Counted from the stretch's first letter, positions 275 through 27,040 are shown. The stretch is DNA of 32,000 bases from Candidatus Nanoarchaeia archaeon (GCA_028279745.1 JANQNC010000001.1:1110001-1142000); one strand, 5' to 3'. Translations and numbers: made by a program. Notes: a model not told the origin generated them from the sequence alone.

Positions 275-1204
275 TTACTCATTATTTAAAGCAATTAAAA
301 ACTGTAAAACTTCTTTCATTTGGTCTTGAATTAATATCACTTTTTCTCTTTTTTCGGTATCTTTTATTTTTTTTGCTTCCTTTTTTGTGTTTTCAAGAGT
401 TCCATATAGCTTTGTTGCGCTTTCGTTTGTGAAATGGGTGTGTAGTTTTTTGAAATCTTGCATGGACTGTGTTATTTGTTGATAGTGGGGGATAAGGTCT
501 TTATGTGTTGGGGGTTCTTTTTTTATTAGTCTGATGATGTCTAAGTGTCTGTCACCTATTTCTTCTAATTGGTTTAAAAGTAAAAAGTAGTTGTTTGATT
601 GAGAGTTTGTCTCCCTTCCATATATGTTTAGTATGTTGTGGGCATATATTATTGTTCGATTGAGGTTTATTTCGGAGAAATTTATAATAAAGTCTAATAC
701 CTCTTTATCATCCTTTTGTATTGCACTAATTATGTCTTGTGATGTCTGTATGAGTATTGAGATTGCTCGGTTAAGTGAGGGTTCAAACTCTTCAGGCTTA
801 GCGTTTGTTAAAATCTTAAAAGTAGTTTTTGTTTTGTCTTGTTGTGTGATTGATATCCCTATTATCTGGTTTACTAAACCTTGTAAAAAAGGTAGGAGAG
901 GTTCTTTTTTTTCAGTGTGTTTGTTGTAAGCTGTGCTGTTTGTATATGTGAATGTTATTTCTGTAACTCCATTGATGCATAATGCGTTCAGATATCTTCG
1001 CACTAATGACTTGTTCATACCATCTATGTTAACGGTTTTCTTTTTTTCTTCAATCTTCTGCTTGACTAAAGTGAGAACAAGTTTATTGCCTTGTTCGGTT
1101 GCTTCTAGCTCATCTTTAGCATTAACCTTGTTCTTCTTGATCCATTTAGTAGGTAAACTTACGGTTAAGCTAGATTTGCCTTGTTTTACTACTTTACGTC
1201 TCAT
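275..1204 (-). CDS. AbrB/SpoVT-domain plus PhoU-like regulator (archaeal PhoU-type phosphate uptake regulator family)
   Basis: N-terminus MRRKVVKQGKSSLTVSLPTKWIKKNKV is a typical AbrB/SpoVT swapped-hairpin motif, followed by a long helical PhoU-like region. The track ORF extends to 1240, but alignment with the paralog at 1329 favours the ATG at 1204. Confidence 0.7.
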   Translation of the reverse strand: MRRKVVKQGKSSLTVSLPTKWIKKNKVNAKDELEATEQGNKLVLTLVKQKIEEKKKTVNIDGMNKSLVRRYLNALCINGVTEITFTYTNSTAYNKHTEKKEPLLPFLQGLVNQIIGISITQQDKTKTTFKILTNAKPEEFEPSLNRAISILIQTSQDIISAIQKDDKEVLDFIINFSEINLNRTIIYAHNILNIYGRETNSQSNNYFLLLNQLEEIGDRHLDIIRLIKKEPPTHKDLIPHYQQITQSMQDFKKLHTHFTNESATKLYGTLENTKKEAKKIKDTEKREKVILIQDQMKEVLQFLIALNNE

Positions 1205-1256
1205 CCTGTATATTGTAGGATGCTTATAGTATATAAACATTTCTAAAAAAGAATAT

Positions 1257-1328: not shown

Positions 1329-2273
1329 ATGGAATCCAGAAAAATAATAGGATTTGGAAAATCTTCTTATGTGTTGTCATTACCAAAAAGATGGATACAA
1401 AAAAATAAACTGTCAAAAGGAGATGTGGTTTATATTTCTGAAAGCCTGAATAATTTGACTTTGTTGCCTAGCTCAAACAAAACAGATGAAGACTTGGTTG
1501 AGATGAAAATCAGTGTAAGTGACAGAACACTAAGCTGCATAAAAAGAAAGATAATCTCTTCATACATAAATGGGGTGAATGTGCTGTATATATCGGGGAG
1601 GGGCTTGGCGGATAAATCAAAAGAGATACGAAAGGTATTACAGGGATTGATAGCATTAGAGATTGTGCAGGAGAGTGCTGATAAGATAATCGCAAGAGAC
1701 TTCCTGAATATGAATGCAATAAGTATAACAAACATAATCAGAAAAATAGACATAATCATAAGGTCTATGTTTATTGATACAAGAAACACTTTGTTAAAAG
1801 GGACAGTTGAGGATTTGGACAGAAGAGATGATGACATCAACAGATTGACATTTCTAGTGTTTAGGGTGATAAAGTCGGTGATGTACAACCCTTCATTGGG
1901 TAAAGATAGAAGAATGGACTTAGTGGATCTAATGAACGCAAGGCACTTTACCTTTAACCTTGAGAAAATCGCAGATGCTCTGAAAAAGATAATCAAAACA
2001 TTCTCTGTTTTGGAAGTTGGCAAGAGGAAAAGAGAAGAGTTGGCTCAGATATTTATGAGAATGGAAAAAGGGTACCTAAATACGATGGCTTCTTATTATG
2101 AAAAAGACAGAGACTCAGCATACAAGATATCAAAAGAGCGAAAAGAGATAATAAACTCACTTGATATCTTCTTTGAAAGTACAACTGACAGAAACGTAAG
2201 ACAAGATGTTTTAGTGCAACTACATTCATTAATGCTAGCAAGCGATACTTTGATAAGAATAATACATGATTGA
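1329..2273 (+). CDS. AbrB/SpoVT-domain plus PhoU-like regulator, paralog of 275..1204
   Basis: N-terminus MESRKIIGFGKSSYVLSLPKRWIQKNKL has the same AbrB motif, followed by a helical PhoU-like C-terminal region. SD GGGGGT lies 9 nt upstream. Confidence 0.75.
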   Translation: MESRKIIGFGKSSYVLSLPKRWIQKNKLSKGDVVYISESLNNLTLLPSSNKTDEDLVEMKISVSDRTLSCIKRKIISSYINGVNVLYISGRGLADKSKEIRKVLQGLIALEIVQESADKIIARDFLNMNAISITNIIRKIDIIIRSMFIDTRNTLLKGTVEDLDRRDDDINRLTFLVFRVIKSVMYNPSLGKDRRMDLVDLMNARHFTFNLEKIADALKKIIKTFSVLEVGKRKREELAQIFMRMEKGYLNTMASYYEKDRDSAYKISKERKEIINSLDIFFESTTDRNVRQDVLVQLHSLMLASDTLIRIIHD

Positions 2274-4343: not shown

Positions 4344-5168
4344 ATGGGTATGGACGTTTATGAATATATCAAGAACAGAAGAAGCGTAAGGAAATTCTTA
4401 GATATGCCTGTGGAATGGGACAAAATGTCATTGATGATAGACGCAGCAAAATCAGCACCAAGTGCAGGAAACCTGCAAGGGTGGAGGTTTATTGTAGTGA
4501 CAAACCGGAACGCAATAAGAAAAATTGCGGATGCAGCACTGCATCAAACCTGGTTAGAAACAGCACCTGCAGTAATAGTTGCATGCTCAGATGTTGACAG
4601 ATATTCAAAGTATTATGGAAAAAGAGGAAACAAATTATATTCAATACAAGATTTATCTATGGCGGTAGCAAACATATTAGTCATGGCAGAAGCACAAGGA
4701 TTAGGATCCTGTTTCATAGGTGCATTTGAAGAAGAAGCAGTAAAGAGAGAGCTAAAAATACCTGAAAGCCTAGATGTTCAAGCACTTATTGCTGTAGGGT
4801 ATGCAGATGAAAAACCTCCCGAGCCAGCAAAACTACATCTGAGAGATGTGGTGTTCTTTGAAACATACGGAAACAGAGTGAGAAGACAGGGAATATGGCC
4901 TTTGGAAAAACACATAGACAAAGGAAGAGAAGCACTAGAAGTCTTTACAACAAAAGTAAAAGAGAAAAGTAAGGAAGTTGTTGATGCTGTTAAGGAAAAA
5001 GTACCTGAACAACCTAAAGAGGAAGTTGTTGAAGAGAGTAAAGAAGCACCAAAACAAGAAGAACCAAAAGATCAAGAACTCCCAGAGCCACCAAAGCAAG
5101 CACCCGCAGGAATCTCATCAGATGTATTAGAACAGATAAAACAGATGAAGAAAAAAAGAACTGAGTAA
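4344..5168 (+). CDS. Nitroreductase-family flavoprotein with an E/K/P-rich C-terminal tail
   Basis: RRSVRKF near the N-terminus and SAPSAGNLQGWRFIVV are classic nitroreductase-fold motifs. The last ~90 aa are low-complexity (KEKSKE...EEPKDQELPEPPKQAP). TTTATTAA at 4319-4326 lies ~22 nt upstream of the ATG, suggesting a leaderless mRNA. Confidence 0.8.
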   Translation: MGMDVYEYIKNRRSVRKFLDMPVEWDKMSLMIDAAKSAPSAGNLQGWRFIVVTNRNAIRKIADAALHQTWLETAPAVIVACSDVDRYSKYYGKRGNKLYSIQDLSMAVANILVMAEAQGLGSCFIGAFEEEAVKRELKIPESLDVQALIAVGYADEKPPEPAKLHLRDVVFFETYGNRVRRQGIWPLEKHIDKGREALEVFTTKVKEKSKEVVDAVKEKVPEQPKEEVVEESKEAPKQEEPKDQELPEPPKQAPAGISSDVLEQIKQMKKKRTE

Positions 5169-5247
5169 TTCTTTGTTGTTAAAAAAGAAAGCTTTAAATA
5201 CTAAAAACCTGATTTCTAACTTATAGTATTAAAGGGGAAAGTTTTAG

Positions 5248-22262: not shown

Positions 22263-22712
22263 ATGAAAAGGAAAAACTTGATGATTGTTTTGGTGTCTTT
22301 GGTTATTGTTTTACTAGACCAATTAACAAAAGGATTAGTTAGACATAACATGCAAACTGGTGAGAGCATACCTTTACTAAACAATTTTTTACACTTGACA
22401 TATGTTCAAAATGCGGGTGCGGGATTTGGGATACTGCAAGGCCAACAAGTTCTGTTTATTGTTTTGTCAGTCATTGTTCTTGGAGGCATAGCTTACTATT
22501 ACAAAAGAATTCCAGATATAGTTTCCTACAATGTTGTGACTGCAATGCTGATAGGAGGAACTATTGGAAATCTAGTTGACAGGATATTCTTAGGATATGT
22601 AGTTGATTTTTTGGATTTCAGAATTTGGCCAGTTTTCAATGTTGCAGACTCCTGTTTAACAATAGCGATAGTTATTATGATAATAATGAGCTTTAAGATG
22701 AATAAGAAATAA
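22263..22712 (+). CDS. lspA: Lipoprotein signal peptidase (signal peptidase II)
   Basis: DQLTK, NAGAGFG, GGTIGNLVDR, GYVVDFLDF and FNVADS. This is the full set of LspA motifs, including both catalytic Asp contexts. Confidence 0.85.
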   Translation: MKRKNLMIVLVSLVIVLLDQLTKGLVRHNMQTGESIPLLNNFLHLTYVQNAGAGFGILQGQQVLFIVLSVIVLGGIAYYYKRIPDIVSYNVVTAMLIGGTIGNLVDRIFLGYVVDFLDFRIWPVFNVADSCLTIAIVIMIIMSFKMNKK

Positions 22713-23791: not shown

Positions 23792-24172
23792 ATGGCAAGA
23801 TCACAAACAAGACCAAAACGAAAAGCAACTGGTGGAAGATATAGCAAGTTGTACAGAAAGAAGAAACAGTACGAAGTAGGAAGCACACCAGTATTGACAA
23901 AAGTAGAAGATACAAAAGCTAAAAAAGTAAGAGTTGTTGGCGGAAACGAAAAACACAAACTACTTTCTTGCGATACAGTTAACTTAATGACAAAAGAAGG
24001 CAAGTGTGTAAAAACAAAGATAAAAACAGTAGAAGACAACCCAGCAAACAGAAACTTTGTAGTCAGGAACATACTAACTAAAGGTGCAGTTATAGAAACT
24101 GAGAAAGGAAAAGCAAAGATAACAAACAGACCTGGACAAGAAGGAACTGTTAATGCATTACAGATAGAATGA
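23792..24172 (+). CDS. rps8e: 30S ribosomal protein S8e
   Basis: MARSQTRPKRKATGGRY...VRVVGGNEKHKLL...RNILTKGAVIETE is characteristic of S8e. SD AGGGT. Confidence 0.9.
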   Translation: MARSQTRPKRKATGGRYSKLYRKKKQYEVGSTPVLTKVEDTKAKKVRVVGGNEKHKLLSCDTVNLMTKEGKCVKTKIKTVEDNPANRNFVVRNILTKGAVIETEKGKAKITNRPGQEGTVNALQIE

Positions 24173-24204
24173 AACTCATTTAATTTTTTTAGGAGGAAAA
24201 AAAG

Positions 24205-24432
24205 ATGGAACAATCAAGACCACTAGATACCTTGAACCAATCAAGGGGAAAAAGAGTAATAGTAGAGACAAAGAACGGAAAACAGTACGTAGGAAAACTA
24301 ACTGCATTTGACATACACATAAATGTTGTGTTATCAGAAGCAGAAGAAAAGGTAGATGGTGAGTTAAAGAGAAAACTAGGAAACATCTTCTTACGAGGAG
24401 ACACGATCATACTAATCGCACCACAAGAATAA
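24205..24432 (+). CDS. Sm-like archaeal protein (SmAP/LSm)
   Basis: Sm1 and Sm2 motifs (GKRVIVETKNGKQYVGKLTAFDIHINVVL, IFLRGDTIILI). SD GGAGG. The neighbourhood with L37e is the conserved archaeal arrangement. Confidence 0.9.
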   Translation: MEQSRPLDTLNQSRGKRVIVETKNGKQYVGKLTAFDIHINVVLSEAEEKVDGELKRKLGNIFLRGDTIILIAPQE

Positions 24433-24433
24433 A

Positions 24434-24598
24434 ATGGGAACCGGAACAGCAGCACTAGGAAAGAAATCAGGAAAAAAGACACACATCTACTGTAGAAGAT
24501 GTGGTCAAAGAACCTATCATGCAACCAAGAAAAAATGTGCTAGCTGTGGCTTCGGTGTTAAAGCAAAACAAAGAACATACACTTGGCAAAAGAAGTGA
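24434..24598 (+). CDS. rpl37e: 50S ribosomal protein L37e (54 aa, below the track cutoff)
   Basis: Translation: MGTGTAALGKKSGKKTHIYCRRCGQRTYHATKKKCASCGFGVKAKQRTYTWQKK. It contains a CxxC...CxxC zinc ribbon and starts 1 nt after the Sm stop. Confidence 0.9.
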   Translation: MGTGTAALGKKSGKKTHIYCRRCGQRTYHATKKKCASCGFGVKAKQRTYTWQKK

Positions 24599-24808: not shown

Positions 24809-25456
24809 ATGAACCAAATAATTCTTAATGAGCAGACTGCTTACCTTTCAGGAATGATTGTGGGTGACGGACATCTTTCTAACTCTGTAAAGTCTAAACG
24901 AAACGATGCTTCAAGAGATTATAGAATCACTTTGGACATAGTGGATAGAGAACATCTTTTTCTAGTTTTTAGAATTATAAAGGGGTTGATACAAACTAAA
25001 TCAGAACCCAAAGAAGTTAACCAAGGCGGCAACAGGATCAGGCGTTATTGTTTTCAATTTAGAAATAAAGATCTTTTTTTGTTTTTTCATGAAGAGTTAG
25101 GAATCCCAAAAGGTGCAAAGAGCTCGGTTGTGAGTGTGCCTTTGAAAATAAAGTTTTCTGGTGAAGAGATAAGGAGGAACTTTTTGGCAGGGTACTTTGA
25201 TGCAGATGGGGGTTTTAGGGGGAACACTTTGGGTTTCACCACTGCGAGTAAAAATTTAAATGAGGATATTGCAGAAATGTTGGGTGATTTTTCTTTTTCA
25301 TTTACTAAAGAGAGCTGGGTGAATAAGAAGTATGGAAAAACTTTTTTTGGTATTAGATTGAGGAGAAGTGAAATAGATAGATTTTTAAATAATTTCCCTC
25401 TCCGCAACAAAGAAAAGCTTGAAAGGATAAACAAGCGATTTAAAATCCAGGTTTAG
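24809..25456 (+). CDS. Free-standing double-motif LAGLIDADG homing endonuclease
   Basis: Two LAGLIDADG motifs: YLSGMIVGDGHL and FLAGYFDADGGF. 215 aa, an I-DmoI-like size. TATA-like CTTATTTAAGC lies ~25 nt upstream. Confidence 0.85.
   Translation: MNQIILNEQTAYLSGMIVGDGHLSNSVKSKRNDASRDYRITLDIVDREHLFLVFRIIKGLIQTKSEPKEVNQGGNRIRRYCFQFRNKDLFLFFHEELGIPKGAKSSVVSVPLKIKFSGEEIRRNFLAGYFDADGGFRGNTLGFTTASKNLNEDIAEMLGDFSFSFTKESWVNKKYGKTFFGIRLRRSEIDRFLNNFPLRNKEKLERINKRFKIQV
25439..25446 (+). promoter_or_regulatory. TATA box candidate (TTTAAAAT) for tRNA-Leu, inside the 3' end of the LAGLIDADG ORF
   Basis: Centred ~29 nt upstream of tRNA position 1, preceded by the purine-rich AAGCGA. Confidence 0.4.
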
Positions 25457-25471
25457 TTAGCTAATTAATAT

Positions 25472-25586
25472 GTGGGGATGCCGGAGCGGCCAAACGGGCC
25501 AGAGGAAGAGGTCTATTTGCCTTTTTCGGCCAAGCTTAGGACCTGGTAGCTTAGTGCTTACGGGGGTTCGAATCCTCCTCCCCACA
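25472..25586 (+). tRNA. tRNA-Leu(UAG), class II, with a 31-nt intron; no encoded CCA
   Basis: Hand fold. Acceptor GUGGGGA/UCCCCAC, with discriminator A. D arm CCG(G)...(A)CGG with AGCGGCCAA loop. T arm GGGGG-UUCGAAU-CCUCC. 15-nt variable region. After removing 25503-25533, the anticodon stem is CCAGG/CCUGG and the loop is CUUAGGA (anticodon 25537-25539). Confidence 0.85.
25503..25533 (+). other. tRNA intron at non-canonical position 30/31 with a bulge-helix-bulge fold
   Basis: Central 4-bp helix GGCC (25497-25500) / GGCC (25528-25531). It is flanked by the 3-nt bulges AGA (25501-25503) and AAG (25532-25534). Both junctions fall after the second bulge nucleotide. The intron-internal helix is 8 bp (25504-25511 with 25520-25527). 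Confidence 0.7.
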
Positions 25587-25594
25587 TTTTTTTT
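25587..25594 (+). terminator. T8 run immediately 3' of the tRNA
   Basis: TTTTTTTT follows the discriminator base directly. The thrC ATG is 3 nt further on. Confidence 0.5.
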
Positions 25595-25597
25595 AAA

Positions 25598-27040
25598 ATG
25601 AAACAAATACAATTCCACAGCACAAACAATGATTCTGAACAAGTAGATTTTGAGACAGCACTTCTAAATGGGATGGCATCAGAATATGGATTGTACATGA
25701 TGGCAAGAAAAGACATCCCAAAACTTTCTATCGAGGAGATAAAAGCAATGCAAAAGATGTCTTATGCAGAGATAGCTTTCCAGGTGTTAAACCCTTTCTT
25801 GGGAAATGAGATCCCTGAAGATGAATTAAAAGAATTGCTGAATGATGCATACAGAGAAGACAAAATACCTACAGAAGTACAAAAAGTAACGGATAAGATA
25901 AACATACTGTGGCTAACCAAAGGACCAACATACTCATTCAAAGATTACGCAGCAAGATTCTTCGGAAGAATGTTGAATTACTTCTTAGCAAAAAGAGGAT
26001 TAAAGAGAACAGTTGTTGTTGCAACTAGCGGAGATACTGGAGGGGCAGTAGCAGACGCATTACATGGATTGGATAGTGTCAATAATGTTGTGTTCTTCCC
26101 AAAAGGCTCGATAAGTGCTGAACAACGAAGACAGATGACAACACTCAAAGAAAATGTATACGCTTTTGAAGTCAACGGAGATTTTGATGTTTGTCAAGCA
26201 TTAGCGAAGAATTTACTTGGGGACAAAGATTTTGCCGAGGAGGTGTTTTCGGATTCTGAAAGACTGACATCAGCAAACTCGATAAGCATAGGAAGATTAT
26301 TGCCACAAGCAGTGTATCCATTCTTCGCATACTCAAGAGTTGCAGACGGAGAAGAGGTTGTGATGAGCATCCCATCAGGAAACTTTGGAGACATGATGGG
26401 CACAGTAGTAGCAAAGCAGATGGGATTACCGATATCAAGAATATTATGTGGTGTGAATGAGAACCTAGAGTTCCCTAACTTTTTAGAGAGTGGAAAGTAT
26501 GTAGTGGAAGCATCCAAAAAATCACCCTCGTCAGCTATGATAGTGAGCCATCCAAGTAATCTAGCAAGATTGATCGATTTCTATGGAGGGCACATGTATG
26601 ATGAAAGAGATAATGATGGGAAGGTTGTAAAAGAAGGAGTGATAGACAAAGAACCAAACATAGAAGAGATGAGAAAAGACATATTCTCCGTCGGAGTGAA
26701 TAATGAGCAACACTTCAAAACAATGAAGGAAGTATATGATGATTATGGGGTCGTTTTAGATCCACATGGCGCGGTTGGTTGGAGAGCGTTAGAATTATTT
26801 GATGCTGATGATATCTCAGTTATATATGAAACGGCAGACCCTGGAAAGTTCCCGCTAGATGTAGAGAAAGCGATAGGGATAAAACCTGAGTTGCCTTTAG
26901 GTATGAAAAAACAGGCAGAGATGGACGAAAGAGTATATAATATTGAATCGGGATCAGATCAAACCGATAAAGGTTTGAAATTAAGCGATGAACAGATAAA
27001 AGAAGCTAAACAGAAAATAAAAGAGATCTTTTTAAAATAA
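25598..27040 (+). CDS. thrC: Threonine synthase (long, E. coli/yeast-like class)
   Basis: The N-terminus MKQIQFHSTNNDSEQVDFETALLNG aligns with E. coli MKLYNLKDHNEQVSFAQAVTQG. PLP-lysine motif GPTYSFKDYAARFFG. Confidence 0.9.
   Translation: MKQIQFHSTNNDSEQVDFETALLNGMASEYGLYMMARKDIPKLSIEEIKAMQKMSYAEIAFQVLNPFLGNEIPEDELKELLNDAYREDKIPTEVQKVTDKINILWLTKGPTYSFKDYAARFFGRMLNYFLAKRGLKRTVVVATSGDTGGAVADALHGLDSVNNVVFFPKGSISAEQRRQMTTLKENVYAFEVNGDFDVCQALAKNLLGDKDFAEEVFSDSERLTSANSISIGRLLPQAVYPFFAYSRVADGEEVVMSIPSGNFGDMMGTVVAKQMGLPISRILCGVNENLEFPNFLESGKYVVEASKKSPSSAMIVSHPSNLARLIDFYGGHMYDERDNDGKVVKEGVIDKEPNIEEMRKDIFSVGVNNEQHFKTMKEVYDDYGVVLDPHGAVGWRALELFDADDISVIYETADPGKFPLDVEKAIGIKPELPLGMKKQAEMDERVYNIESGSDQTDKGLKLSDEQIKEAKQKIKEIFLK

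What the first reader, a model, noticed from the sequence alone, without database searches (positions are those of the whole stretch)
25472..25586. tRNA-Leu(UAG) interrupted at non-canonical position 30/31 by a 31-nt BHB intron
Only removal of 25503-25533 restores a perfect anticodon stem (CCAGG/CCUGG) and a canonical loop CUUAGGA (U33, anticodon UAG, G37). The pre-tRNA can form a 4-bp GGCC/GGCC helix flanked by two 3-nt bulges. Both junctions fall after the second bulge nucleotide, and an 8-bp intron helix (h') follows. The outer exon helix (h) is nearly absent, so the motif is a relaxed HBh' type. The central helix recruits G25/G26, which competes with the D stem. Non-canonical intron positions and relaxed BHB motifs are known from Crenarchaeota, Nanoarchaeota and ARMAN-type archaea. 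They are linked to broad-specificity splicing endonucleases. Standard tRNA finders often miss or misassign such genes.
Basis: partly seen in the sequence, partly recalled or inferred. Interest (0 to 1): 0.65.

Follow-up and report, generated by a model that had tools for sequence, protein, structure and literature searches.

The report
Split tRNA-Leu gene plus homing endonuclease
This is a real leucine tRNA gene of a tiny DPANN archaeon, interrupted in its anticodon stem by a 31-base intron that standard tRNA finders miss; in every relative examined this intron sits beside a DNA-cutting "homing endonuclease" gene, which hints at how such introns may spread.

Summary
Window 25472-25586(+) is a tRNA-Leu(UAG) gene split between positions 30 and 31 by a 31-nt intron (25503-25533).

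- **Detection:** ARAGORN and Rfam find nothing. After removing the intron, ARAGORN calls an 84-nt class II tRNA-Leu(UAG).
- **Junction:** Fifteen intronless orthologues, nearly all from Pace-, Woese- and Nanoarchaeota genomes, carry exactly the predicted junction.
- **Structure:** Eleven distinct intron-bearing orthologues keep the 4-bp central helix, both splice sites and the intron helix through compensatory changes (0/500 shuffles).

The motif is a relaxed HBh' bulge-helix-bulge. Both this motif and the 30/31 site are known for archaea, so the tRNA on its own is a new member of a known kind.

- All 9 homologue clusters I looked up abut a tRNA-Leu(UAG) with a 30/31 intron.
- 5 of 6 intron-bearing loci found by tRNA pattern carry the gene or a truncated copy; the sixth keeps a short remnant.
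- 0 of 15 intronless loci carry it.
- Catalytic residues are conserved, and dN/dS is about 0.14-0.28.

I infer, without proof, "collaborative homing": the nuclease cuts intronless alleles and the intron protects carriers.

The parts
25472..25502 (+). tRNA-Leu(UAG) exon 1: acceptor 5' strand, D arm and anticodon-stem positions 27-30
   Evidence: ARAGORN on the spliced sequence. Gap-free alignment to 15 intronless orthologues.
25503..25533 (+). 31-nt BHB (HBh') intron inserted between tRNA positions 30 and 31
   Evidence: An intron at the same site in 11 distinct orthologues.
25534..25586 (+). tRNA-Leu(UAG) exon 2: G31, loop CUUAGGA, 3' anticodon stem, long variable arm, T arm, acceptor 3' strand and A73. 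No CCA is encoded.
25497..25500 (+). Central helix H, 5' strand (G25 G26 C27 C28). The 5' splice-site bulge A29 G30 | A follows at 25501-25503.
   Evidence: MFE fold. 100% paired in 11 sequences, with C27-G changing to A-U and position 28 varying as CG/UA/AU/UG.
25528..25531 (+). Central helix H, 3' strand (GGCC). The 3' splice-site nucleotides A A | G31 follow at 25532-25534.
25504..25527 (+). Intron helix h' (25504-25512 paired with 25519-25527) and its 6-nt loop
   Evidence: Base-pair probabilities 0.86-0.93. 9 of 9 pairs show compensatory changes among 6 sequences, and 5 of 5 among 11 sequences.
25440..25446 (+). TTTAAAA, a TATA-box-like element about 26-32 nt upstream of the tRNA 5' end, lying inside the last codons of the endonuclease ORF
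   Evidence: Read from the sequence. A similar cgaTAgcTTTAAAA element lies at the same distance in the intronless loci L010 and L016. Its function is inferred.
25587..25594 (+). Run of eight T directly after A73; likely the archaeal oligo-T terminator
   Evidence: Read from the sequence. Its function is inferred.
24809..25456 (+). Free-standing I-DmoI-like LAGLIDADG homing endonuclease gene (215 aa) ending 16 nt before the tRNA
   Evidence: Pfam LAGLIDADG_3. Motifs GDG 19-21 and FDADGG 130-135 are conserved. AF2 pLDDT 94.6, best PDB match I-DmoI. Linked to the 30/31 intron in all relatives examined.

Best explanation
SHOWN:
- 25472-25586 is a functional, class II tRNA-Leu(UAG) gene of a Woesearchaeota/Nanoarchaeota-type DPANN archaeon.
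- A 31-nt intron interrupts it between positions 30 and 31.
- The pre-tRNA can form a relaxed bulge-helix-bulge motif (HBh'). The 4-bp helix G25G26C27C28/GGCC is followed on each strand by the splice site (AG|A and AA|G), and a 9-bp intron hairpin h' abuts it. The outer exon helix is missing.

INFERRED from established archaeal tRNA splicing:
- The splicing endonuclease EndA cuts both sites. RtcB joins the exons and circularises the intron.
- This yields the 84-nt tRNA with stem CCAGG/CCUGG and loop CUUAGGA. CCA is added afterwards.

SHOWN:
- The intron is one half of a conserved two-part module. Its partner is the I-DmoI-like LAGLIDADG endonuclease gene at 24809-25456, which abuts the tRNA 5' end.
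- In relatives, this ORF simply runs on into the tRNA, in all three reading frames.

INFERRED (about 0.5-0.55):
- The module works by 'collaborative homing'. The endonuclease cuts intronless tRNA-Leu(UAG) alleles around the conserved sequence ...AAACGGGCCAG|GCTTAGGACC....
- Repair copies the endonuclease gene and the intron together.
- In the carrier, the intron splits the target site and so protects its own essential tRNA gene, while the BHB motif keeps the tRNA functional.
For: tRNA and intron:
- The spliced sequence is called tRNA-Leu(tag); the intact one is missed or misassigned.
- The MFE fold contains H, the bulge and h'.
- Fifteen intronless orthologues carry the exact junction, and all are called tRNA-Leu(tag).
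- The cloverleaf is 100% paired across 6 intron-bearing genes, with compensatory changes in the acceptor, T and variable arms.
- BHB: H is 100% paired and h' 94.5-100% paired, with 7-9 compensatory pairs; 0/500 shuffles reach the observed paired fraction or covariation score (20/500 in A4 match the count of compensatory pairs), and slid registers fall to 31-63%.

Module:
- tblastn places endonuclease homologues directly upstream of the intron-bearing tRNA in L017, L022, L024, L026 and L021. No intronless locus has one.
- In a blind test from the protein side, 9 of 9 homologue clusters looked up are followed by a tRNA-Leu(UAG) with a 30/31 intron.
- Among loci found by tRNA pattern alone, the endonuclease is present in 5 of 6 with the intron and 0 of 15 without (exact p about 3e-4, not corrected for shared ancestry).
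- Empty site: LSm, about 85-90 nt, then the intronless tRNA in L010 and L016. Occupied site: LSm...endonuclease-tRNA(intron) in the window, L028, L030, L033, L035, L037 and L039.
- The endonuclease looks active. D20 is invariant and D133 is D or E. dN/dS is 0.14-0.28. The AF2 model is confident and its best match is I-DmoI.
- Decay stages expected of a homing cycle are present: truncated genes (L024, L035) and a deletion that leaves a 36-aa remnant with the intron intact (L023).
Against: - No expression or splicing data exist for this locus.
- The EndA gene is not in the window, so the enzyme's ability to cut an HBh' motif is taken from the literature on related lineages (PMC5829648).
- Folding energy of the BHB core is only modestly better than shuffles (z -1.78).
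- For the homing step, no cleavage site is known.
- The two endonuclease subfamilies roughly follow the two host groups, so long vertical co-inheritance with repeated joint loss is not excluded.
- With only 31 bp of exon 1 between the intron and the endonuclease gene, transfer between species with different upstream flanks is hard to picture.
- The intronless set was defined by my search pattern, which required an uninterrupted GCTTAGGACCTGG and GGCC at positions 25-28. It is therefore not a random sample.
Confidence: 0.8

Rival explanations
1. The intron is an ordinary DPANN non-canonical intron, and the endonuclease gene is only a physically trapped neighbour. The two were acquired once in an ancestor and co-inherited because the ORF abuts the tRNA. 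The endonuclease cuts some other site or has another role, and there is no functional interplay with the intron.
For: - Endonuclease subfamilies (50-60% versus 25-30% identity to the window protein) roughly track host groups as judged by S8e, LSm and TFB similarity.
- No recent transfer event was demonstrated.
- DPANN tRNA genes carry many other introns without any endonuclease, for example the 37/38, D-loop and T-loop introns in L027, L030, L035 and L039.
Against: - The endonuclease is never seen with an uninterrupted 30/31 site (0 of 14 distinct carriers).
- It is never seen at the 15 intronless loci, although these interleave with carriers in tRNA and host-marker similarity.
- Flanking genes differ between loci while the endonuclease-tRNA junction is invariant.
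- Catalytic residues and purifying selection are maintained.
Confidence: 0.3
2. The LAGLIDADG protein is a maturase-like cofactor that helps the splicing endonuclease handle this relaxed HBh' motif, rather than a DNA endonuclease.
For: - LAGLIDADG maturases exist, and the bI3 maturase appears among the fold matches (rank 39).
- The motif lacks the outer helix, which strict EndA types cut poorly (PMC5829648).
Against: - Both catalytic acidic residues are conserved across the family, unlike pure maturases.
- Loci with a truncated (L024, L035) or deleted (L023) gene keep an intact tRNA, intron and BHB.
- The best structural match is the DNA endonuclease I-DmoI.
Confidence: 0.06
3. The locus is a dead tRNA gene, disrupted by an insertion that is not removed.
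For: No expression data. No other tRNA-Leu(UAG) copy could be looked for outside the 32-kb window.
Against: - All 23 cloverleaf pairs are 100% maintained in 6 intron-bearing genes, with compensatory changes.
- The BHB covaries with the anticodon stem.
- A promoter-like TATA element and an oligo-T terminator are in place.
Confidence: 0.03
4. ARAGORN's intron-mode reading is right: a tRNA-Pro(AGG) with a 33-nt intron (25503-25535) in the anticodon loop.
For: ARAGORN -i output.
Against: - It leaves the long variable arm unpaired and gives a poor loop.
- Intronless orthologues show the uninterrupted sequence CCAGGCTTAGGACCTGG and are called Leu(tag).
- A73 and the class II architecture fit tRNA-Leu.
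Confidence: 0.01

Closest known systems
Non-canonical BHB / HBh' tRNA introns of Crenarchaeota, Nanoarchaeota and ARMAN-type archaea (Marck & Grosjean 2003, as reviewed in PMC4090602; PMC3239211; PMC5829648)
   Same: - A short protein-spliced intron outside position 37/38.
- A 4-bp helix with splice sites two nucleotides into each 3-nt bulge.
- A relaxed motif lacking one outer helix.
- Position 30/31 is already listed as an intron site, and as the split site of N. equitans tRNA-Lys(CUU).
   Different: - This host lineage (Woese-/Pacearchaeota type) and this tRNA (Leu-UAG) were not found described with the 30/31 intron in the papers searched.
- No known tRNA BHB intron is reported with a dedicated neighbouring endonuclease gene.
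I-DmoI and other LAGLIDADG endonucleases encoded inside BHB introns of archaeal rRNA genes
   Same: - A monomeric two-motif LAGLIDADG fold; I-DmoI is the best PDB match (TM 0.79 on the target).
- An archaeal host.
- Association with an EndA-spliced intron in a stable-RNA gene.
   Different: - Here the ORF is not inside the intron. It lies upstream of exon 1, abutting the tRNA 5' end.
- The intron itself is only 17-42 nt long and has no ORF.
- Sequence identity to I-DmoI is only about 18-20%.
[quoted passage not shown]
   Same: - An endonuclease gene next to, not within, an intron-bearing gene.
- An intron without an ORF.
- Intron and endonuclease present or absent together.
   Different: - That the endonuclease targets the intron insertion site is proven in the phage cases and only inferred here.
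- The intron is a protein-spliced BHB intron, not a ribozyme.
- The host is a cellular archaeon, and the gene is a tRNA.
Phage T4 SegB, a free-standing GIY-YIG homing endonuclease in the tRNA gene cluster (PMC2330249)
   Same: A free-standing endonuclease gene embedded among tRNA genes and cutting a tRNA gene of a related genome.
   Different: A different nuclease family, no intron involved, and a phage context.

Membership tests
Archaeal BHB-type (HBh') tRNA intron | Removing the insert restores a complete cloverleaf with a standard 7-nt anticodon loop | tested here: met
   ARAGORN calls an 84-nt tRNA-Leu(tag) after removal of 25503-25533. The result aligns gap-free with 15 intronless orthologues.
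Archaeal BHB-type (HBh') tRNA intron | A 4-bp central helix with a splice site two nucleotides into a 3-nt bulge on the 3' side of each strand | tested here: met
   GGCC/GGCC with AG|A and AA|G. H is 100% paired in 11 sequences, with compensatory changes at positions 27 and 28.
Archaeal BHB-type (HBh') tRNA intron | Strict hBHBh' form: both bulges closed by flanking helices h and h' | tested here: not met
   h' is present (9 bp), but the outer helix h is at most one pair (G24-C32). The motif is therefore the relaxed HBh' class, not the strict class.
Archaeal BHB-type (HBh') tRNA intron | Host encodes a splicing endonuclease able to cut relaxed motifs | not testable with these tools
   No tRNA_int_endo domain among the window ORFs scanned, and the genome identity is masked. 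PMC5829648 reports alpha4-type EndA with the L3 loop, and disrupted tRNAs, in DPANN lineages including Pace- and Woesearchaeota.
Archaeal BHB-type (HBh') tRNA intron | The intron is actually excised in vivo | not testable with these tools
   Needs tRNA-seq or RT-PCR. Indirect support only: conservation of the tRNA and the BHB.
Class II tRNA-Leu | Long variable arm, discriminator A73, a Leu anticodon, and a purine (G) at position 37 | tested here: met
   ARAGORN structure of the spliced sequence. The variable-arm pair 45:48-type covaries between A-U and G-C.
LAGLIDADG homing endonuclease (monomeric, I-DmoI-like) | Two LAGLIDADG motifs, each ending in a catalytic acidic residue | tested here: met
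   LSGMIVGDG (D20) and LAGYFDADG (D133). G19-D20-G21 and G134-G135 are invariant; D133 is D, or E in one of 35 sequences.
LAGLIDADG homing endonuclease (monomeric, I-DmoI-like) | An alpha-beta-beta-alpha-beta-beta-alpha fold repeated twice | tested here: met
   AF2 pLDDT 94.6, pTM 0.91. Foldseek best hit I-DmoI with E 1e-10, TM 0.66 on the query and 0.79 on the target, rmsd 3.0 A.
LAGLIDADG homing endonuclease (monomeric, I-DmoI-like) | Site-specific double-strand DNA cleavage | not testable with these tools
   Needs an enzyme assay.
Collaborative homing (free-standing endonuclease plus ORF-less intron) | Endonuclease gene adjacent to the intron-bearing gene; both present or absent together at a syntenic site | tested here: met
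   - 9 of 9 endonuclease clusters looked up are next to a 30/31 intron.
- 5 of 6 pattern-found intron loci carry the endonuclease, and 0 of 15 intronless loci do.
- Empty LSm-tRNA sites occur in L010 and L016.

Collaborative homing (free-standing endonuclease plus ORF-less intron) | The endonuclease cleaves the intronless allele at or near the intron insertion site, and the intron-bearing allele is resistant | not testable with these tools
   Indirect only. The intron is the only consistent sequence difference between carrier and non-carrier tRNA genes.
Collaborative homing (free-standing endonuclease plus ORF-less intron) | Evidence of horizontal spread or of a gain-decay-loss cycle | tested here: inconclusive
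   Decay stages are seen (truncated L024 and L035; deleted L023), and carriers interleave with non-carriers. No demonstrable recent transfer was found, and the subfamilies roughly follow host groups.

The most novel reading that the evidence does not exclude
The 30/31 intron of tRNA-Leu(UAG) and the abutting I-DmoI-like LAGLIDADG gene form a mobile two-part element in Woese-/Pacearchaeota. This would be the first case of collaborative homing involving a protein-spliced (BHB) tRNA intron. The endonuclease would cut the conserved anticodon-arm DNA of intronless alleles, and the mini-intron would serve as the immunity determinant. That would give a concrete DNA-level mechanism for the gain and spread of archaeal tRNA introns. 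It would also be a plausible intermediate on the way to the ORF-containing BHB introns of archaeal rRNA genes.
Probability: 0.5. Interest if true: 0.8.

Novelty: new variant of a known kind. Interest (0 to 1): 0.68.

Why it matters
**Practical.** tRNA-Leu(UAG) genes of this type are invisible to ARAGORN and Rfam. Such genomes therefore look as if they lack a decoder for CUA/CUG-type leucine codons. PMC5829648 explicitly notes incomplete tRNA sets in DPANN genomes.

- This is a tRNA BHB intron locked to a conserved, apparently active homing endonuclease gene.
- Clean empty and occupied versions of the same genomic site exist.
- That makes the question directly testable with one protein and two short DNA substrates.
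- If confirmed, it extends collaborative homing from phage group I introns to cellular, protein-spliced introns. It would also link the ORF-less tRNA introns to the endonuclease-bearing rRNA introns of archaea.

Tried and rejected
- **Rfam cmscan** at gathering and at E<=10 gave no tRNA hit, not even a partial one.
- **Threonine synthase synteny.** I tried to reach orthologous loci through the downstream threonine synthase. The gene is highly conserved, but its neighbourhood is not, so it gave no tRNA.
- **Window genome identity.** Looking up the window's own ThrC returned 'not on record', so the genome could not be identified and its EndA could not be examined.
- **First metagenome scan.** Requiring the T loop GGTTCGAATCC found nothing, because the metagenomic relatives have GGTTCAAATCC or GGTTCGAGTCC. 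The relaxed 19-mer found six loci.
- **MAFFT on full pre-tRNAs** misplaced the window's h' 5' strand. Pair counts were therefore made on loop-trimmed sequences kept in register from the splice junctions. This register is fitted by construction; the slid-register controls address that.
- **A larger BHB or inverted repeat** enclosing the endonuclease ORF, or a second copy of exon 1 upstream of it: nothing convincing.
- **Sequence searches with the endonuclease** against PDB sequences and NCBIfam gave only weak or intein-embedded matches. The fold comparison was needed.
- **Canonical 37/38 intron with another anticodon:** rejected, because no U33-containing loop results, and ARAGORN's forced Pro(AGG) model is contradicted by the orthologues.
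- **EndA in the window:** none among the ORFs scanned.

Full report
**1. The observation**

Window 25472-25586(+) reads GTGGGGATGCCGGAGCGGCCAAACGGGCCAG | AGGAAGAGGTCTATTTGCCTTTTTCGGCCAA | GCTTAGGACCTGGTAGCTTAGTGCTTACGGGGGTTCGAATCCTCCTCCCCACA.
- ARAGORN in default mode finds no tRNA anywhere in the 32-kb window.
- Rfam finds none at gathering score, or even at E<=10.
- After deleting 25503-25533, ARAGORN returns an 84-nt tRNA-Leu(tag). It has a 7-bp acceptor stem, a 3-bp D stem (C10-G25, C11-G24, G12-C23), anticodon stem CCAGG/CCTGG, loop CTTAGGA, a long variable arm, T stem GGGGG/CCTCC and A73.
- In intron mode on the intact gene, ARAGORN forces a tRNA-Pro(agg) with a 33-nt intron and an unpaired variable region.

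**2. The fold**

- The RNAfold MFE of the whole precursor (-47.2 kcal/mol) contains GGCC 25497-25500 paired with GGCC 25528-25531. It also contains the 3-nt bulge AGA 25501-25503 and a 9-bp hairpin, 25504-12 with 25519-27. Pair probabilities are about 0.60 for H and 0.86-0.93 for h'.
- For the 42-nt core 25495-25536 this structure is the MFE and the centroid, at 67% of the ensemble. Its energy is only moderately better than shuffles (z -1.78; 7 of 200).
- Both exon-intron junctions fall after the second nucleotide following each H strand (AG|A and AA|G). That is the canonical BHB register, shifted 7 nt upstream of 37/38.
- The outer helix h is at most G24-C32, so the motif is the relaxed HBh' type.

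**3. The host**

- The window has 37% G+C.
- It encodes an ATP-dependent DNA ligase with the archaeo-eukaryal N-terminal domain, and aIF-1A.
- The best named relatives of the threonine synthase and of the upstream ORF are 'Nanoarchaeota archaeon' and 'Candidatus Woesearchaeota archaeon'.
- The source contig is 1.30 Mb.
- This is a DPANN archaeon of the Woese-/Pacearchaeota group.

**4. Orthologues fix the junction**

- One scan of species-representative genomes, with a pattern that matches both ...GGCC-AG-GCTTAGG... (intronless) and ...GGCC-AA-GCTTAGG... (intron 3' end), returned 17 loci. Nearly all are from Pace-, Woese- and Nanoarchaeota or Undinarchaeales.
- Fifteen of them are uninterrupted genes with ...AAACGGGCCAGGCTTAGGACCTGG.... 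ARAGORN calls all 15 tRNA-Leu(tag).
- The in-silico spliced window tRNA aligns with them without a gap across the junction, at up to 89.5% identity.
- Two genome loci (L017, L006) and four distinct metagenomic loci (L021=L024, L022=L025, L023, L026) carry an intron at exactly 30/31. ARAGORN misses all of these.

**5. Covariation**

Six full-length intron-bearing genes:
- All 23 cloverleaf pairs are paired in every sequence. There are double-sided changes in the acceptor stem (4 pairs), the T stem and the variable arm. These are tRNA genes under selection, not pseudogenes.
- In the BHB, all 9 h' pairs show double-sided changes and 100% pairing. 0/500 shuffles reach the observed values, and slid registers give 35-63% pairing.

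Adding the loci found through the endonuclease (section 6) gives 11 distinct sequences:
- The central helix varies with the anticodon stem: GGCC/GGCC, GGAC/GTCC, GGAT/ATCC, GGAT/GTCC, GGAT/GTCT, GGCA/TGCC and GGAC/GTTT.
- H is 100% paired. C27-G changes to A-U five times, and position 28 is CG, UA, AU or UG.
- The first five h' pairs are 94.5% paired, all with compensatory changes.
- Introns range from 17 to 42 nt. The first intron nucleotide is A in 10 of 11, and the last two are AA in 10 of 11.

Caveat: these alignments were loop-trimmed and kept in register from the junctions, because MAFFT misplaced one strand. The slid-register control is the guard against that.

**6. The unexpected part: a linked homing endonuclease**

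The protein:
- The ORF 24809-25456(+) ends 16 nt before the tRNA and has a LAGLIDADG_3 domain.
- It carries two motifs, LSGMIVGDG and LAGYFDADG. G19-D20-G21 and G134-G135 are invariant. D133 is D, or E in one sequence, across 35 family members.
- An AlphaFold model (pLDDT 94.6, pTM 0.91) matches I-DmoI best (E 1e-10, TM 0.79 on the target, rmsd 3.0 A). I-DmoI is the monomeric endonuclease encoded in the BHB intron of an archaeal 23S rRNA gene.

The linkage:
- tblastn with this protein against all loci in hand hit, at 25-31% identity, an ORF in the same position and orientation directly upstream of the intron-bearing tRNA in L026, L022, L017, L024 and (cut by the contig end) L021. It hit nothing in the 15 intronless loci.
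- Five further endonucleases used as queries hit, in intronless loci, only the tRNA itself. That is because the ORF tails are translated tRNA; see the last bullet of this section.
- As an independent test from the protein side, a database search gave 37 clusters at 50-60% identity. I looked up nine (P0122, P0126, P0128, P0135, P0137, P0141, P0146, P0150, P0155). In every one the ORF runs into a tRNA-Leu(UAG) with an intron at 30/31.
- L023 has the intron but no endonuclease. It keeps a 36-aa remnant and about 58 nt of upstream homology, which indicates a deletion.
- L024/L021 and L035/L036 carry truncated genes.

The genomic site:
- The ribosomal-protein S8e / LSm (/L37e) neighbourhood is conserved. 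In intronless L010 and L016, LSm is followed after about 85-90 nt by the tRNA.
- In the window, L028, L030, L033, L035, L037 and L039, the endonuclease gene lies between LSm and the tRNA.
- Beyond that, flanking genes differ from locus to locus.

Selection and the ORF end:
- dN/dS between endonuclease pairs is 0.14-0.28, with dS near saturation.
- The C-terminal tails of the ORFs are the tRNA 5' exon translated in all three frames (AEVPERSNG, GDAGVAKRD, RRCRSGQTGQ). The functional protein therefore ends at '...RINxRF', right at the tRNA 5' end. In most loci the stop codon is whatever comes first inside the tRNA or the intron.

**7. Interpretation**

Established:
- This is a real, conserved tRNA-Leu(UAG) gene with an HBh' intron at 30/31.
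- The intron is tightly linked to an intact I-DmoI-like endonuclease gene.

Inferred from the known pathway:
- EndA cuts, RtcB ligates, and CCA is added afterwards. The EndA of this genome could not be examined.
- PMC5829648 reports that strict EndA types cut HBh' motifs incompletely. It also reports that DPANN lineages, including Pace- and Woesearchaeota, have alpha4-type enzymes with an extra L3 loop and many disrupted tRNA genes.

Inferred with about even odds: collaborative homing, as described for phage group I introns (PMC3984707).
- The intron is the only consistent difference between carrier and non-carrier tRNA genes.
- The endonuclease is never found with an uninterrupted 30/31 site.
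- The flanking DNA ...CAAACGGG....G|GCTTAGGACC... is highly conserved, which is what a LAGLIDADG target needs.
- Decay stages of a homing cycle are present.

Against this reading:
- No cleavage data exist.
- The endonuclease subfamilies roughly follow host groups.
- Only 31 bp of homology separate the intron from the endonuclease gene.

**8. Comparison with what is known**

- Position 30/31 and HBh' motifs are listed for archaeal tRNAs, and N. equitans splits tRNA-Lys(CUU) at 30/31 (PMC4090602). The tRNA part is therefore a new member of a known kind.
- Endonuclease ORFs inside BHB introns are known for rRNA genes (I-DmoI).
- Free-standing endonucleases that cooperate with ORF-less introns are known for phage group I introns.
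- A free-standing endonuclease in a tRNA cluster is known in T4 (SegB, PMC2330249).
- I found no paper describing a LAGLIDADG gene linked to a tRNA BHB intron. The library searched is limited to open-access texts.
- I therefore rate the module as a new variant of a known kind.

**9. Verdict**

On its own the tRNA would rate about 0.3 for interest. The conserved endonuclease-intron module raises the overall interest to about 0.68, because it makes the origin and mobility of archaeal tRNA introns experimentally testable.

Noticed in passing
L039:1560-2400; L035:2975-3250; L027, L030, L037, L038 just downstream of the endonuclease gene: Several endonuclease-linked tRNA-Leu(UAG) genes carry more introns besides 30/31. 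L027, L030, L037 and L038 have a canonical 37/38 intron. L035 has three interruptions and L039 apparently four (D loop, 30/31, 37/38, T loop). The boundaries of these extra introns were read by eye only.
   Followed up: partly
window 24809-25456 and the homologous ORFs in L017, L022, L026-L039: In most loci the endonuclease ORF has no stop codon before the tRNA. It reads through exon 1 in any of the three frames and stops inside the intron, at the anticodon TAG, or in the variable arm. This implies co-transcription with the tRNA and possibly RNase P cleavage of the mRNA 3' end. Only the window copy has its own stop, plus a TATA-like box, before the tRNA.
   Followed up: partly
window 25598-27040 (+): The threonine synthase is 67-76% identical to a very large set of homologues that includes Syntrophorhabdaceae, Syntrophus and 'Proteobacteria' bacterial MAGs as well as DPANN archaea. 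Its neighbourhood is not conserved among archaeal relatives. This suggests inter-domain transfer, or mis-binned contigs.
   Followed up: no
window 22263-22712 (+): A signal peptidase II (LspA, Peptidase_A8; E 9e-39) in an archaeal genome. This is the lipoprotein signal peptidase typical of bacteria.
   Followed up: no
window 23792-24598 (+): A conserved gene string upstream of the module: ribosomal protein S8e (23792-24172), an Sm-like protein (24205-24432) and a 54-aa zinc-ribbon ORF that looks like ribosomal protein L37e (24434-24598; below the ORF list cut-off). The 111-aa and 200-aa minus-strand ORFs listed there are probably antisense artefacts.
   Followed up: partly
window 5135-5216 (+): A weak, sub-threshold Rfam match to a C/D-box snoRNA family (30.5 bits against a gathering score of 55; E 4.1) in an intergenic gap. 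It has C-like (AGAUGA) and D (CUGA) boxes. It could be an archaeal C/D sRNA, or chance in A-rich sequence.
   Followed up: no
window 275-1240 (-) and 1329-2273 (+): Two divergently oriented proteins of about 315 aa, each with an N-terminal MazE/AbrB-type (SpoVT) domain. One also has a weak PhoU-like match. They may be paired regulators of unknown role.
   Followed up: no
L009:5204-5385: In one intronless relative, tRNA-Leu(CAG) and tRNA-Leu(UAG) lie in tandem 14 nt apart and have near-identical bodies, consistent with recent duplication and an anticodon change.
   Followed up: no
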